Below are positions 18,334 through 57,706 of a DNA stretch of 64,000 bases, piece by piece; position 1 is the stretch's first letter, and every line of letters begins with the position of its first letter. The notes beneath the pieces were generated by a model. That model was not told where the DNA came from and ran no database searches. It saw only the letters and a program-made list of their open reading frames with translations. A program made the position numbers and the translations under genes. The stretch lies in the NCBI RefSeq assembly GCF_009914755.1, contig NC_060927.1; one strand, written 5' to 3'. This DNA is from the human T2T-CHM13v2.0 reference genome, Homo sapiens.

Positions 18334-18633
<300 letters not shown>

Positions 18634-18719
18634 CCATTCTTTTCTTCTACAAATTGCTAAGGTTGGTTTTAAGTGTTTAGATAGCAATATTTCTTAATAA
18701 TGTCTAACCACAAGAACAG

Positions 18720-19101
18720 TGTGTTTGTTCCTTCGTGCTGCCATATAGGAATACCTGTGGCTGTGTAATTTATAAAGAAAAGAGGTTTGTTTGGCTGATA
18801 GTTCTGCAGGCTGTACAAGAAGCATGATGAGGGTCTCAGGAAGCTTTTACTCATCTTGGAAGGCAAGGGGAGCCAGCATGTCACATGGCAAGAGGGCGAG
18901 CAAGATTGAGAGGACAGGGAGGTCCCAGAGCCTTTTTAACAATCAGATCTCCCATGGAGTCATTACCACGGGGAGGGCACCAAGCCATTCATGAGGGATC
19001 CACCCCCATGACCCAGACAGCTCTCAGTAGGCCCCACCTCCAATACTGGAGATCACATTTCAATATGAGATTAGGAGGGAACAAATATCCAAACCATATC
19101 C
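18720..19101 (-). mobile_element. MST (MaLR) solo LTR
   Basis: gtaatttataaagaaaagaggttt...aaaccatatc; TSD AACAG. Confidence 0.85.
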
Positions 19102-19680
19102 AACAGGGATAATTTATTCATATGTATCTAGCACTGTGTTTGGCCCAGGTGGCATGATGGAATCCTGGAATGTCTACATGGAAGAATACAATAGATCACC
19201 CAGAAATATCCAAACTCTCATAACATCTCCCAGTAGGTAAAATCTGTATCTTTCAGATTTAGTATCTTGTAGATTTAATAGTAACAGTAATAATTCAGAT
19301 TTCATTGACACTTGTTCATCTGCTCACATAGGATCCTAATCTCCTTAAAATGTCCCCAAATTTTGGAGGAAGTTCAGGTAATGTTTTACATATACTATGA
19401 AAAAAAAAACAATTAATTATCTAATGAGTTACCACTTTATTTCCTCTTCACCTGCTGTAACCTCATAGGCGGGATACTGCAGAGTGCCCTGGAGCTGCTG
19501 CCTCCCCAGAGATGCTGCCATGAAGGTCCTGTGAGCTCTCACATGCCAAGGCAGTACAGGGGTCTGTGGAGAAGAAGCATAGACTGTTCTCTTTTCCTCT
19601 ACTATTACAGGGTCCACTGGTAGTGCCATTTCTGTCTTATGGAATTTTTACTGAAACAACTTTTTAGGAATGTACTTAAA

Positions 19681-19828
19681 CCATTACTACTCAAAGTGTA
19701 GTCCATGGACCAATAGCATTCGGCAGCATTGTTAGAAATGCAGAATCTCAGGCCTCCACAATCAGAATCTGCATTTTAACAACAGCCCCAGGTGATTCAT
19801 ATGCAAGTTACTCTTTGAGAGGCACTGA
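19681..19828. mobile_element. MER5A-like hAT-Charlie MITE
   Basis: ctcaaagtgtagtcc...gttagaaatgcagaatctcaggc...ttgagaggcactg. Confidence 0.75.
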
Positions 19829-20759
19829 CTCAAAGCACCTCTCTCTTCTTGGGACTAAGGCATTAAATTCAACTGGGGACAAGAGCAGTCAGGAAACAAA
19901 AGTTCTCAGGAAGCTGCCTCACTCCTCACTGCCTCAAGAGATAGACTTTGGTGACCTGCCACTTCTAATGAGGTTCAAGCAGACTCGGCTTAGGCTCAAA
20001 CTAGGAATCCACCAGATGCATGAGAAATCTTGCTCTTTACTTACACATGAAATATATTTTTATTTAATCAACATTGTTTCAGCATGTATTATTTACAAAA
20101 TACTCCATTATGGGTTGTACATATACCAAAACAAGTGAAACAGTCTTTGCCCTCAAAGGATGCAAATTAAGGTGTATGTTGGGGCAGGTGGGGACCTTTG
20201 GGATATAGTAAAAGGAGGGGGCCAAAATGTTCCCAGCTGAAACAGTCTTCTGTAGTTTGGAGAAACCACTAACACCTCTCATATTTACAGCCTATGTAGG
20301 CTTGTTTTCCAGGTGGAATGCCCATCTTCCATTTCCATTTCTCTACGTTCTTGTTTACTTTCCAGGGCCAATTTAAAATGCCAATTTACTAATAAAACCT
20401 GCCCTATTCCCCTCAGCTAATAATGGTGTTGACATCTCAGAACTCCCATCATATCCCACCTTAAGATCAGTTATGTGTGTTGGGGTCTTATGGAGAAAGG
20501 AGGGAGATGTAATGGTACCTCATAGACAAAATGCATTTTAGCCAGTCTTCTTAGATTCACCATGGGATCCAGCATGTGGTGCCATAATAGTTTTTGAAGA
20601 AAGAAAAAAAAAATAAAGGTAATGCATCCTTTCTGTTAATGCCTCACTACTCAGGAAATATATCAGAGAGAACCACAATCAGAGAGAAGAAGAGAGAAAA
20701 CACTGAACACTGACTGGGATAGTAAGAGCACTAACCCCCTTTCTCTTCACTGTTTTCTC

Positions 20760-20940
20760 TGGTTTGATTGGTTCTTTCACCTAGAAACAATGTCCTCGTT
20801 GGTAGATTAGTAGCTGTTAATCTCAGCTGAATGGAATTTCAGCTTATAAGAAGTGGGCTGGCTATATTCCTATTAGTATTTAAGAAGTCCCTTACCTTAG
20901 TGGGTGGTACTTTTTATGGCTGGATTTCCCTAAAGCTGAG
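20760..20940 (+). promoter_or_regulatory. Putative proximal promoter/5'UTR of the ferritin-like gene
   Basis: Non-repetitive stretch with reverse CCAAT (ATTGG 20767), E-box CAGCTG (20824), TATA-like TATAAG (20845) and a uORF at 20916-20933; motif-level evidence only. Confidence 0.35.
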
Positions 20941-21042
20941 ATGGAATATGAAATCCACGGTCCCTTCTCTGAAGAATGTGGAGTTGCTATTAACCGAGTA
21001 GCATCTTATGAGCTGCATATCAGTGATGCTTACTTATCCATG
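20941..21042 (+). CDS. Ferritin-like gene coding exon 1 (helix A)
   Basis: AINRVASYELHISDAYLSM vs FTH1 AINRQINLELYASYVYLSM; donor ATG|GTTAGT at the same codon as FTH1 intron 1. Confidence 0.88.
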
Positions 21043-24000
21043 GTTAGTATGGGTTCTTGAGCAACTGAGAGGGAGGTTTCAGCTCTGCTCTGGGTGATAA
21101 TATAACTTCTATCTTCTTAATAATAGTTCTTATGGCCATATTGGTAGTTGGATACCAGATGAAACAGCAACTCAGTGGTTGGGATATTGCTGCTCTGTGG
21201 CCCTATATTAAAAGCTATGGGCTTTGATAGGGAAAGTTACAGTTCTTTCCAGTGTGTTGCCAAAACTACATGGGCATCAAACACTGGTGATAGACTGAAT
21301 AAACAATTTTATACCTATATGCTATTTCAAAATTAACATAGATGTGTTAGGATTGATGAAATAGATTTTTAAAATGTAAATTTATGCTAGATTTGTGTCA
21401 TATCTACACAATTAAAGGATATAAGTGCTAGCATCTAAGTTCAAAACTATGACCCTTGAAGAAGCCATAAGAGCAAGACATTAGGCACCAGTATATTAGG
21501 ATCTGGATGGCTGATCTTTGAGGTAGACTAGGTTCTGGGGGACAGCCAGAGCCTTCTGAAGTCAAAGAACAAACAGGATCCAAGACTGACCAAAGAAGGC
21601 CTCTTCCTGGACAACCACTGAGACAACAAAGTGAGTTTGTGTGCAATTCAGGTCTTAAAACTATTTTACCTCATCCTCAGCCTCCCCCTTTTCTTACATT
21701 TGACCAGGCCTGTTATTACAGTGAAGATATGAGAATGCCTCCTTTTGCCAAGTTCTTCTCGGAGCAGGCTGAGTTGAAAAGGGAGCATGCAAAGCAGTTC
21801 CTAAGATATCTAAGAAAACGTGAGGGTATTATCTGCCTTCCAGTTATTAAGGTGAATGTCAAACTTTGTTTTGACTTCTGTGGGGCCTTTTCCAGGTCTA
21901 GAGAATTAAACTGATTAGTTGCTATGTAACATTTTAGGTTACTCATGTTCCTACATGGGCTTCTTAGCAACTAACTGACTCTGAAAGCAAGTATATGTCA
22001 ACATCATTTGGGGTAAATTTTAGCCACTAAATGCTTGTTTGGCTTGTCTTAATGAGCGTCACAAAGTTTGGTCGCTGGGTTGTCAGCATCACCTGGGGAC
22101 TCACTAGAAATGCAAATTTGTGGCTCTCACCCCAGACATAGGCCCAAAGAGCTACAACTTAACAAGCTCTCCAGATGATCCTAATGGTATGTGTAGTTTG
22201 AGAAGCGCTACTCTAATGCCTTCTTCTCAGAGGTGTTAGCGTCCTATTTCAGATTGTTAATCTAATTCAGGTACATGTTCAGGTATTTAATATGGCTGTC
22301 TCTTTAAAGTAGTAAAACAAACTTTTTTTGTTTGGGCACACACTCCAAAGAAACAACCTGAGCCTTAGTTGGGACTATTACATCCAGGAACATCCCTAAT
22401 TTTCCTAAGGTGGTTGTTTTGGTTGTTTTTTAACTCCTGCTTTATAAAAAGAAGTAAATGTCTGCTAATGAGAGATGGACCACCATCATAGAATTCCAAA
22501 GCTAATGCAATACTTGTATGTGTACCTGTGCTAGTAGTACCCTTGCTCTGTAGCACATTAAAATCACCTGGGAATCTTTTAAAACTCATGATGCCCATGT
22601 TGCATCCCATACCAATTAAGTCACAGTGTCTACGATTGAGAGCCAAGTATTAACATTTAAGATTCTCAGCTGATTCCATTGCACCTCAAAGTTTGGAGAC
22701 CATTACACTATGCAAACCTAGTCATGGTCCTATGCAGGAAGCAGAATGCAACAAAACTGTGCCTGAAGTAAAAAAGCGACTCTCCTGTTCCTCTTCAACA
22801 GAGGCCCAACATAGATAACTGGGGAAATGGCTTACAAGCCCTGAAGTTTGCTGTGCAGTTGGAGAACACATTAACCAATGTCCTACAAGACCTGAAAATC
22901 ACAGCTACTAAGGATGATGAAACTGGTGTAAGTAGTTAGCTGGTTCTGACAAACAGTGTCATCTTTCACTTCTGGATTATGATTTGCTTCTGAGAAAGGG
23001 GACCAAGGCAATAGATCACCCAACATGTGTTTTTTTCCCTGGAAGGAAGTCTGGGAACTTATTTCTAGGAGTAGTTCGGGAGTGGGCAGATAGCTGTCCT
23101 GGTGAAGAAAAGTGAAATTTACTGTATGGTGAAAACATCTTCCTAGGAGTAATGCACTCTGTAAAATTAAATAAAACAATTGTTCTGTTGCTGTTGGCTT
23201 GTAAATATCCTAAACCAGAAATGCTTAAGCTTTACTGAGCACAAGAATCACTTGGAGTGCTTACTAAAACACACTTCTAGGGCTCACTCCCAAAAGTTGT
23301 TTATTGGGTTGGTTTTGTATAGGTCTCAAGAATGTATTTCTAACAAATCTAGGTGGTGATACAGCTGGCTGATGGCCACAGTTTGAGAACTACTGTTCTA
23401 GACTGTTACTGCAAAAGTAGGTGTTAATGGTGACCTATTACAATACAGACCTCTCTGAGGTCTTCCTGGTTATTGGTAAGCACTCTACCTCAAAGTGATA
23501 ACTTCTTTCTAACTTCCTAGCTTCTCAGGAAGTCAAAGTGAAGAAAATGGGCCTAGTTACAATAGTTTTCAACTCCAGACACATGTTGGACTCAGTGAGG
23601 AGCTCTGAAATGGTACAAATGCTCGAACCTTATGCCAGATCACTTAAATTTTAATCTTTAGGAATGAGGTCTGGGCAGCTACTCAAAATCTCTATGTGAT
23701 TCAAATAATCAGGATTGAAAACCATTGCAGTAGTAGCCTGTTAAAGTAACCTGTACTTTTAATAAGACAACCTAATACTCATACCCATTGAAAGTAGGTG
23801 CTTGTATTCACCTAAAGGTCTTGAATATCTTAGATCAGTGCTGCTGGATCTTCAATATGCATATGAATCACCTAGTCTTTCTTAAAATTCAGAGGCTGGT
23901 TTAGTAAATCTGGAGTGGAGCCTGAGATTTTGAATTTCTGACATGCTCCCAGGACTGCTGGTCCCTGGGCTACAATATAGGTAGATTCTTGTTGCAGACA

Positions 24001-24193
24001 TGGTCCTCAATGTGGGTGCTTCCCTGTTTTATTTCTATAGCTCATAGACTTCGTAAAGGAGTTCATAGATAAACAGACAGCAAGCATAGCTTTTCTGGAA
24101 TACCATCAGAAGCTATTAGAAGAGTCCCTCCAGCAGAAAGGCCTGTCTGAAAAGTCTGCTGAGTCTGCTGAGACATCAGTTGAAGAGACCTAA
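20941..24193 (+). CDS. Four-exon ferritin-like (ferritin-domain) gene, join(20941..21042,21708..21851,22802..22927,24041..24193), 174 aa; candidate orthologue of mouse Ftdc1/Ftdc2
   Basis: Spliced ORF without stops or frameshifts: MEYEIHGPFSEECGVAINRVASYELHISDAYLSM|ACYYSEDMRMPPFAKFFSEQAELKREHAKQFLRYLRKREGIICLPVIK|RPNIDNWGNGLQALKFAVQLENTLTNVLQDLKITATKDDETG|LIDFVKEFIDKQTASIAFLEYHQKLLEESLQQKGLSEKSAESAETSVEET*. About 30% identity to FTH1 by hand alignment; phase-0 GT-AG introns at FTH1 positions; Kozak gagATGg; AATAAA at 24334. Confidence 0.88.
21708..21851 (+). CDS. Ferritin-like gene exon 2 (helix B, BC loop)
   Basis: Acceptor with pyrimidine tract ...tttgaccag|; FAKFFSEQAELKREHA vs FTH1 FAKYFLHQSHEEREHA; donor AAG|GTGAAT. 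Confidence 0.9.
22050..23980. mobile_element. Cluster of about five MER5A/MER5B-like MITEs in introns 2-3 of the ferritin-like gene (~22050-22212, 22535-22705, 23215-23400, 23560-23730, 23835-23980)
   Basis: Recurrent atcacctgg...aaatgca and aagtttgagaa(c)cactg motifs. Confidence 0.65.
22802..22927 (+). CDS. Ferritin-like gene exon 3 (helix C)
   Basis: Acceptor ctcttcaacag|; 126 nt/42 aa, the same length as FTH1 exon 3; RPNIDNWGNGLQAL vs KPDCDDWESGLNAM; donor GGT|GTAAGT. Confidence 0.9.
24041..24193 (+). CDS. Ferritin-like gene exon 4 coding part (helix D plus divergent acidic tail)
   Basis: Acceptor ttttatttctatag|; LIDFVKEFIDKQTASI vs FTH1 LCDFIETHYLNEQVKAI; TAA at 24191-24193. Confidence 0.87.
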   Translation, partial: LIDFVKEFIDKQTASIAFLEYHQKLLEESLQQKGLSEKSAESAETSVEET

Positions 24194-24294
24194 CTTCTGA
24201 AGGCAGCAGCACAGCAAGTCTTGCCATTATAGTGATCTCAGAGTCAGCTACTTAAGAGTCTTGGTCAGTTCCACTTGCCTGAAGACTGCTTTCC

Positions 24295-24339
24295 TTTTTA
24301 TCTAGTTTCCTAATCCTCTTTGCTGTGCATGCAAATAAA
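24295..24339 (+). terminator. 3'UTR CPE (TTTTTAT 24295-24301) and polyadenylation signal (AATAAA 24334-24339) of the ferritin-like gene
   Basis: Both motifs read directly, 100-145 nt after the stop codon. Confidence 0.65.
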
Positions 24340-25024
24340 TCTGCTTTGCATTATAACTATGTGTAAAAATATTGGTAGAACTAATGCTTCCAGTGCTCCA
24401 ATAGCAATGTGGAATTGGTATAAAAAGCTTCCTGAGACAGTGGGTGTGTTAGGCTAAAAAAAAAATCTTCCCTCTACCATGCCCCCACCTTACCTTAGCA
24501 CCCAGAGTCAGGATTTGGTAAATGCAAGCAGTACAAGTGGATATACTAGAAATTAAGTGGTGAAACCTTAAGTCTCAATGTTCTCCTCTTATTTGTATAT
24601 GTACTTTAAGTATACAATATAATAGGGGTTCCTTCATATTAAACGCAGACCTAAGATGGAAAACAATTCTTGGTCTAGAAAGGGTGACTTTCACGTGAAG
24701 GATGGTGCAGTGCCATTTCATAGCCAAGGTAGGTGTAGGCAACAGGAGGGTACACAGAGGCAATTAATGCATTGCAGCCAAGTGTGTGGATGCCCCTATC
24801 CATTCCACTGTAAGCCAATTAGCAGCTACTAGGGTAATTACTTTCAGGAGCAAAGAATGAGCATGCAAGCTTGAGTCAGGCTTCTCAGGGCCTCATGTGA
24901 CTAGTACCCTCTAGGAAGAAATAGGGGCTCTATAGGATTGTGCGCTGGCTCCAAAACTTACTAACTCCTTGGCCTTGAGTTTATACCTCTTCATTGCCTC
25001 AGTTTGGTCATCTGTAAAGTGAGG

Positions 25025-53275: not shown

Positions 53276-53548
53276 TCCGATGAAATTTAAATACATAATG
53301 ATTTGATATAAATTTTCATTTGTATAAAAATATACAAACTAGTCTTCCATATTGCCCAGAGCAGAACTTGTTTCTGTAACAATTTATAGGAAAACATCAT
53401 GAATCCCAAAGCCCTTGATATTCTGCAGGTAAAAGAGGAATTGTGCCTATTCCTTCCGGCAGGAGCTCATTTAAGTACAGATGGAATAATGTGACATACA
53501 AGTGGACCACAAACACAGTATCACTAATCATCAGAAAAATGCAAATCA

Positions 53549-57706
<4,158 letters not shown>

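What the first reader, a model, noticed from the sequence alone, without database searches (positions are those of the whole stretch)
20941..24193. Ferroxidase centre, 3-fold channel and E-helix are remodelled: probably a repurposed, non-iron-storing ferritin
Hand alignment to FTH1 numbering: E27, Y34, H65, E107 and Q141 are retained, but E61>L and E62>K (codon 21777-21779). Lys at this position is the L-ferritin-type change that abolishes ferroxidase activity. Channel and transit residues change (H118>K, C130>I, E134>K, E140>K), and the E-helix YLFDKHTL that forms the 4-fold axis is replaced by an acidic tail (SEKSAESAETSVEET). Helix B ends in a new basic patch, KQFLRYLRKR. Inference: a four-helix-bundle scaffold or adaptor that may not form a 24-mer cage, possibly nuclear or nucleic-acid/protein binding.
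Basis: partly seen in the sequence, partly recalled or inferred. Interest (0 to 1): 0.75.

Follow-up and report, generated by a model that had tools for sequence, protein, structure and literature searches.

The report
Unannotated human oocyte pseudo-ferritin gene
This is an intact human gene, missing from RefSeq but transcribed in early embryos, for a ferritin-fold protein that lacks a key iron-oxidising residue and likely works as a protein-binding maternal factor, like its mouse oocyte counterparts, rather than as an iron store.

Summary
The observation mostly holds. Four exons form an intact 174-aa reading frame with the same three intron positions as FTH1 and FTL. E27, Y34, H65, E107 and Q141 are kept; E61 is Leu and E62 is Lys, the ligand set of the ferroxidase-dead FTHL17. 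K62 (39 of 40) and loss of the E helix (40 of 40) hold across placental orthologues. E134>K is really a one-residue deletion of uncertain position, and the basic patch is partly inherited. The locus is already in print as RNA: primers for NOVELG000067783 (Torre 2023, expressed in 1- to 8-cell human embryos) map to it exactly. It is single-copy in human, syntenic with mouse Gm813/E330017A01Rik, and probes for oocyte-specific E330017A01Rik translate to a member of the same clade. From memory, these mouse genes are Ftdc1/2, published as DNMT1 cofactors; I could not retrieve that paper. Loss of ferroxidase activity is well supported. Loss of the 24-mer is plausible but unproven, because E-helix loss alone does not stop cage assembly. 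Nuclear or DNA binding is untested. Value: a candidate maternal-effect gene invisible to RefSeq-based screens.

The parts
20824..20829 (+). E-box CAGCTG, candidate FIGLA-type site (inferred; this hexamer occurs 0.33 per kb in the window, so weak alone)
   Evidence: mouse relative is lost in Figla-null ovaries
20877..20883 (+). TATA-like element (inferred; start site not mapped here)
20916..20933 (+). five-codon out-of-frame upstream ORF in the 5' UTR; published RT-PCR forward primer lies at 20918-20939
20941..21042 (+). coding exon 1 (aa 1-34; helix A with E27, Y34 and family-fixed D32, FTH1 numbering)
21708..21851 (+). coding exon 2 (aa 35-82; helix B and start of BC loop); Pfam Ferritin PF00210 above cut-off on its own
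21774..21779 (+). codons Leu57 and Lys58 = FTH1 positions 61 and 62 (ferroxidase bridging Glu replaced by Lys)
21792..21821 (+). basic end of helix B (aa 63-72, net +5; partly ancestral)
22802..22927 (+). coding exon 3 (aa 83-124; helix C with E107 and H118>K)
24041..24193 (+). coding part of exon 4 (aa 125-174, stop; helix D with one-residue deletion and Q141; no E helix; acidic tail)
24194..24339 (+). 3' UTR with published reverse-primer site (24262-24281), CPE-like TTTTTAT (24295) and AATAAA (24334)

Best explanation
An intact, single-copy, four-exon human gene, transcribed in early embryos, encodes a ferritin-fold protein with Lys in place of the iron-bridging Glu62 and no E helix; it is predicted to have no ferroxidase activity and likely acts as a small oligomer that binds and stabilises partner proteins, with DNMT1 the likely partner by analogy to mouse (recalled, untested). 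Shown: gene structure, residue changes, family-wide conservation, single copy, identity with a published embryo transcript, and kinship with mouse E330017A01Rik. Predicted: four-helix bundle with helix D running on instead of turning into an E helix. Inferred: K62 pairs with the invariant E107 inside the bundle as in L chains, making the old metal site structural; the conserved helix A, helix B and BC-loop face is a re-engineered two-fold interface (homodimer in human, which has one gene; possibly a heterodimer in mouse, which has at least two); the three-fold and four-fold contacts of the cage have decayed. Recalled only: mouse Ftdc1/Ftdc2 bind and stabilise DNMT1.
For: Gene and introns. K62 39 of 40 (R in 1), hydrophobic 61 in at least 39 of 40, E107 40 of 40, Y34 40 of 40, Q141 39 of 40. 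E62K suffices to abolish activity (PMC7760355 passages); L chains replace the site with a salt bridge (PMC4642653 passages). Of 42 positions conserved in 13 canonical ferritins, 13 are kept, 7 switched to another fixed residue, 22 lost or variable; helix A, helix B and BC loop are the most conserved segments of the family (0.77-0.83) while N-terminus, AB loop and DE/E region are the least (0.37-0.46). AlphaFold2 models of macaque and rhinoceros orthologues: four helices, helix D to residue 163-167, no E helix; ferritins are the top fold matches. Divergent members that group with squirrel have also lost E27 and H65. No IRE match in 18500-26500. Transcript. Mouse link. Human and orangutan identical over 133 of 133 residues.
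Against: No biochemistry on any family member was seen. E-helix loss does not prevent 24-mers in human H or L chains, and FTHL17 has the same ligand set yet is described as a ferritin. Positions 57, 60 and 64 remain acidic, as in an L-type nucleation surface. The run-on of helix D has falling confidence (pLDDT 77 then 56 in macaque; 83 then 57 in rhinoceros). The mouse-like member is only 34% identical to the human protein, so function may not carry over, and an exon-by-exon genome search with it did not find this locus. Human-macaque shows 17 changes in 168 residues against about 22 expected if neutral (P about 0.14; divergence figure recalled). The DNMT1 paper could not be retrieved. No peptide evidence for the human protein was found.
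Confidence: 0.55

Rival explanations
1. It is a catalytically dead but cage-competent subunit, like FTL or FTHL17, that forms or joins 24-mers in the oocyte and changes iron nucleation, pore size or cage turnover.
For: Same ligand set as FTHL17. Acidic 57, 60, 64 kept. Cages tolerate E-helix loss (entries 5xb1, 3kxu, 4v6b among fold matches). Bundle superposes on ferritins at about 1.4 A over 141-146 columns.
Against: Y32D, Q83P, D84V, loss of the QNY, DDVAL and RGG motifs, H118K and the helix D deletion change every other contact class; only 30-33% identity to the four human ferritins; no IRE.
Confidence: 0.25
2. It is a nuclear nucleic-acid-binding adaptor that uses the basic end of helix B on DNA or RNA.
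For: Net +5 in human, family median +4; FTHL17 is partly nuclear.
Against: Three of the five basic positions are ancestral; range falls to +1 in the family; the protein is acidic overall (pI 5.0). From recalled ferritin structure these positions lie at the end of the two-fold interface, facing the partner's acidic AB loop and position 32.
Confidence: 0.08
3. The human copy is transcribed but no longer makes a needed protein (relaxed or decaying gene).
For: Absent from RefSeq; weak constraint in the human-macaque comparison; non-coding and alternatively spliced isoforms reported; 8 database models skip exon 2, including chimpanzee.
Against: Intact frame and splice sites; 0 changes in 133 residues to orangutan against about 8 expected (P about 2e-4; divergence figure recalled); strong RT-PCR bands at 1- and 8-cell stage.
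Confidence: 0.08
4. It keeps a single-metal site (E27, H65, E107, Q141) and acts as a zinc or iron sensor or buffer without cage or catalysis.
For: E27 37 of 40, H65 34 of 40, E107 40 of 40, Q141 39 of 40.
Against: K62 would occupy the site; divergent members lose E27 and H65 while keeping E107 and a basic 62.
Confidence: 0.04

Closest known systems
NOVELG000067783 (Torre et al. 2023, PMC10616205)
   Same: The same locus: both p1 primers match the window exactly. Reported as an unannotated, early-expressed chromosome 3 gene with ferritin-domain isoforms, also expressed in macaque and marmoset embryos.
   Different: In the passages read, the paper gives no residue analysis and no mouse link, and suggests a recent origin; the family is in fact present from afrotherians to bats and keeps the FTH1/FTL introns.
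Mouse Gm813 and E330017A01Rik (Ftdc1 and Ftdc2; these names and the DNMT1-cofactor role are recalled)
   Same: Same interval between Cpox and St3gal6; E330017A01Rik oligonucleotides translate to a member of the same clade; oocyte expression.
   Different: Human has one copy; the mouse-like member is 34% identical and has also lost E27 and H65.
FTHL17
   Same: Identical ligand pattern E27, Y34, K62, H65, E107, Q141; germ-cell expression, no ferroxidase activity.
   Different: FTHL17 is an intronless X-linked FTH1-type copy with E helix and cage motifs intact; 29.5% identity; K62 most likely arose independently.
FTL (L ferritin)
   Same: K62 with E107; three phase-0 introns at the same columns.
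   Different: FTL has Y27, G65, E141, E61, an E helix and the three-fold residues; 30% identity.
FTH1 / FTMT and vertebrate M-type ferritins
   Same: Fold, intron positions (FTH1), five of seven centre residues; highest identity is to a python M-like ferritin (40%) against 32% to FTH1.
   Different: No E61/E62, altered three-fold channel, no E helix, no IRE.

Membership tests
Ferritin fold (PF00210) | four-helix bundle with long BC loop; Pfam score above cut-off | tested here: met
   (82.9 bits for macaque orthologue)
H-type ferritin (FTH1/FTMT) | ferroxidase centre with E27, E62, H65, E107, Q141 | tested here: not met
   K62 in human and 39 of 40 orthologues
H-type ferritin (FTH1/FTMT) | three-fold channel H118, C130, D131, E134 | tested here: not met
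   K118, I130, deletion at 134-136; D131 kept in human, variable in family
Canonical animal ferritin (H, L, M) | C-terminal E helix at the four-fold axis | tested here: not met
   motif in 0 of 40; absent from both models
Canonical animal ferritin (H, L, M) | three phase-0 introns at conserved positions | tested here: met
   intron columns identical to FTH1 and FTL
Canonical animal ferritin (H, L, M) | iron-responsive element in the 5' UTR | tested here: not met
   no IRE among 17 Rfam matches at E<=5 in 18500-26500; no CAGTGN in 20700-20943; a distant upstream exon is not excluded
Canonical animal ferritin (H, L, M) | 24-mer cage and iron mineralisation | not testable with these tools
   needs SEC-MALS, EM and iron-loading assays
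L-type ferritin | K62 with E107 | tested here: met
   the salt bridge itself is inferred
L-type ferritin | Y27, G65 and acidic nucleation residues 57, 60, 61, 64 | tested here: not met
   E27 and H65 kept; 3 of 4 acidic, 61 hydrophobic
L-, H- or M-type lineage | descent from one named lineage | tested here: inconclusive
   outside the H and L clades, but AU tests reject none of four sister groupings (p 0.27-0.68)
FTHL17 | intronless X-linked FTH1-type copy with E helix | tested here: not met
FTDC (mouse Gm813/E330017A01Rik; name recalled) | position between CPOX and ST3GAL6 | tested here: met
   hub gene table; PMC11913378 passage
FTDC (mouse Gm813/E330017A01Rik; name recalled) | same protein clade | tested here: met
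   probe 10 of 15 and primer 7 of 7 residues match P0135, best of 251 proteins; P0135 lies in the 27-row clade with human, support 100/100. Gm813 itself was not tested by sequence
FTDC (mouse Gm813/E330017A01Rik; name recalled) | oocyte or early-embryo expression | tested here: met
   from print, tied to this locus by primers; oocyte stage in human not seen directly
FTDC (mouse Gm813/E330017A01Rik; name recalled) | binds and stabilises DNMT1 | not testable with these tools
   recalled from a 2025 Cell Death Differ paper not held in the library

The most novel reading that the evidence does not exclude
This is the sole human FTDC gene: an old third intron-bearing mammalian ferritin lineage that gave up both catalysis and the cage and became a dimeric maternal cofactor protecting DNMT1. 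Because it is missing from RefSeq, its loss-of-function alleles are an unseen cause of early embryonic arrest, multilocus imprinting disturbance or molar pregnancy.
Probability: 0.35. Interest if true: 0.82.

Novelty: new member of a known kind. Interest (0 to 1): 0.55.

Why it matters
A 2020 review counts four functional human ferritin genes and calls all pseudogenes processed; this is a fifth, intron-bearing gene with an intact frame that RefSeq RS_2025_08 does not list. It joins two lines that I found nowhere joined in print: a highly expressed unannotated human embryo transcript and the mouse oocyte genes at the same locus. Variants here are not scored by RefSeq-based pipelines, so it is a directly testable candidate maternal-effect gene. 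Structurally it would be a natural case of a ferritin chain that lost catalysis and perhaps the cage.

Tried and rejected
Four-copy complex prediction of the macaque orthologue gave no verdict (score 0.26, mark 0.32); it is no evidence either way. Second paralogue: none in the window by profile or by tblastn with 135 proteins (4 hits outside the gene came from non-ferritin ends of mis-modelled proteins) and none in the genome (4 of 33 matches are this gene's exons at 75-89%, the other 29 are 26-40% identical). Processed FTH1 pseudogene: rejected (introns, own clade). Recent primate origin: rejected. Descent from M-type ferritin: attractive by identity but unresolved. ESM Atlas gave only generic ferritin clusters. 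Literature searches for Ftdc1/Ftdc2/FTDC and the DNMT1 paper found nothing relevant (ids tried in 18, 57). The locus was not found by word search in the PhyloCSF new-gene paper (PMC6886504, main text and 9 supplementary files; 2 files not searched), a human oocyte isoform table (PMC13233917; cut, no coordinates) or a mouse oocyte proteome (PMC10347836 supplements). Searches returned nothing specific. Earlier scan findings were not available.

Full report
Observation. Four exons at 20941-21042, 21708-21851, 22802-22927 and 24041-24193 splice at GT-AG sites, all in phase 0, to a 174-residue frame with no internal stop; AATAAA follows at 24334. Exon 2 alone scores above the Pfam Ferritin cut-off. 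I fetched human FTH1, FTL, FTMT and FTHL17 from the same genome and aligned them: the three introns fall in the same columns as in FTH1 and FTL, and identity is 32%, 30%, 33% and 30% over about 149 columns, against 40% to a python M-like ferritin. In FTH1 numbering E27, Y34, H65, E107 and Q141 are kept, 61 is Leu, 62 is Lys, 118 is Lys, 130 is Ile, 140 is Lys. FTL and FTHL17 also carry K62, and FTHL17 matches six of the seven centre positions (it has Asp at 61). Helix D lacks one residue; the gap lands on 134 and 135, so E134>K is not a firm statement. The basic end of helix B is net +5 against +2 to +3 in canonical chains, with two new basic positions.

The family. Searches found relatives named from primates, tree shrew, squirrel, bats, carnivores, ungulates, whales, pangolins, mole, elephant and manatee, mostly labelled ferritin-like; chimpanzee and orangutan have partial database models. 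From 120 hits I kept 40 near-full-length proteins and dropped fragments, exon-skipped and fused models and the canonical ferritins. In these 40: K62 39 (R 1), hydrophobic 61 at least 39, E27 37, Y34 40, H65 34, E107 40, Q141 39, K118 33; position 131 is variable. None has the E-helix motif and 35 have a net acidic tail. Of 42 positions conserved in 13 canonical ferritins, 13 are kept, 7 are fixed for another residue and 22 are lost or variable; helix A, helix B and the BC loop are the most conserved parts, the N-terminus, AB loop and DE/E region the least (41 rows with human). A 46-protein tree puts human, 18 named mammalian and 8 divergent unnamed proteins on one side of a long branch with 100/100 support, roughly following placental phylogeny. 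The sister lineage is unresolved. No clearly non-placental member appeared among the best 150, which carry no names, so this is weak. The human genome holds one copy.

Structure. AlphaFold2 models of the macaque (pLDDT 84.6) and rhinoceros (86.1) orthologues are four-helix bundles in which helix D continues to residue 167 or 163 with no E helix; confidence falls past residue 150-160. Top matches are ferritins (TM about 0.8; Z about 21). The human spliced protein itself was not folded; macaque differs at 17 of the first 168 residues and shares L57/K58.

Expression and identity with print. Torre et al. 2023 (PMC10616205; passages, Supplementary Data 9 and part 2 of the review file read) highlight NOVELG000067783, an unannotated early-expressed chromosome 3 gene with ferritin-domain isoforms, seen also in macaque and marmoset embryos, with strong RT-PCR bands at 1- and 8-cell stage. 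Its primers match the window once each, at 20918-20939 and 24262-24281, so it is this gene. The authors suggest a recent origin; the family range and shared introns argue against that. In mouse, Gm813 and E330017A01Rik lie between Cpox and St3gal6 (PMC11913378, passages). E330017A01Rik is ovary-specific, oocyte-localised and nearly absent in Figla-null ovaries (PMC1906760, section 8) and falls early in a mouse ovarian-insufficiency model (PMC9513667, passages). Its published probe and primer translate to peptides matching P0135 at 10 of 15 and 7 of 7 residues, best of 251 proteins; P0135 scores 82 bits against the human protein and at most 42 against the four human ferritins. Against this, an exon-by-exon genome search with P0135 returned only weak intronless X-linked matches and missed this locus, probably because short exons score low. 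From memory, these mouse genes are Ftdc1 and Ftdc2, reported in 2025 as oocyte cofactors that bind and stabilise DNMT1; I saw nothing of that paper.

Selection. Human and orangutan are identical over 133 of 133 residues where about 8 changes would be expected if neutral; chimpanzee differs at 1 of 126. Human-macaque is less telling: 17 against about 22. The neutral divergences used are recalled figures and no codon data were available.

Mechanism. E62K is stated to be enough to abolish ferroxidase activity (PMC7760355, passages), and L chains turn the site into a stabilising salt bridge (PMC4642653, passages); with invariant E107 the same is inferred here. No IRE was found, so iron control of translation is unlikely. 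Cage loss is less sure: deleting the last 22-23 residues of human H chain left oxidation and shell largely intact, though a bacterial protein fell to dimers (PMC13207978, passages), and an L chain with a scrambled E helix still forms 24-mers. The better argument is the pattern: the face that forms the two-fold contact (recalled from ferritin structures) is conserved but re-engineered, while three-fold and four-fold motifs have decayed. I therefore favour a non-catalytic dimer or small oligomer acting as a maternal protein cofactor (0.55), ahead of a dead but cage-competent subunit (0.25), a nucleic-acid adaptor (0.08), a decaying gene (0.08) and a single-metal sensor (0.04).

Novelty. The transcript is known and the mouse genes are known; RefSeq lacks the human gene. 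In ten searches of the held library I found no paper that links the two or analyses the active site, but subscription papers and current GENCODE or HGNC records were not visible. Verdict: new member of a known kind, interest 0.55.

Noticed in passing
window about 25020-28070, minus strand: Broken, internally deleted ERVL-type provirus with LTR-like ends (class recalled: HERV-L/MLT2), convergent with the gene and starting about 700 bases past its poly(A) signal; many stops and frameshifts; four open pieces gave no Pfam match. Only partly repeat-masked in the hub table.
   Followed up: partly
window 21708-21851: Eight database proteins (chimpanzee, three bats of one search plus Phyllostomus-type model, porpoise, deer, sheep) join exon 1 to exon 3 in frame, removing helix B. 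Real isoform or modelling error not resolved.
   Followed up: partly
window 21681-21707: In-frame alternative acceptor 27 bases upstream of exon 2, used by the douc langur model P0002 (adds 9 residues).
   Followed up: partly
window about 21940-21965: The paper's second forward primer lies in intron 2, marking a minor exon or retained intron; not validated by PCR in that paper.
   Followed up: no
proteins: Many paralogues in bats (Molossus, Myotis, Eptesicus), two with vomeronasal-receptor fragments in the model, suggesting copies at other loci; fast-evolving tandem or multi-copy forms among rodent-like proteins (P0121, P0122).
   Followed up: no
P0111 (Saguinus oedipus): A TCEAL8/BEX-family model whose C-terminal part matches exons 3-4 of this gene, a possible retro-fusion.
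   Followed up: no
P0140 (unnamed): An M-like ferritin with E helix intact that shares K62 and L73 with this family and sits next to it in one tree (93/76); possible early relative.
   Followed up: partly
window 19697-19805, 22083-22179, 23867-23964: mir-544-like matches below gathering score, probably small DNA-transposon remnants.
   Followed up: no
window 53397-56650: WWP1P1 processed pseudogene keeps long open pieces (246, 187, 294 aa) over WW and HECT regions; already annotated.
   Followed up: no
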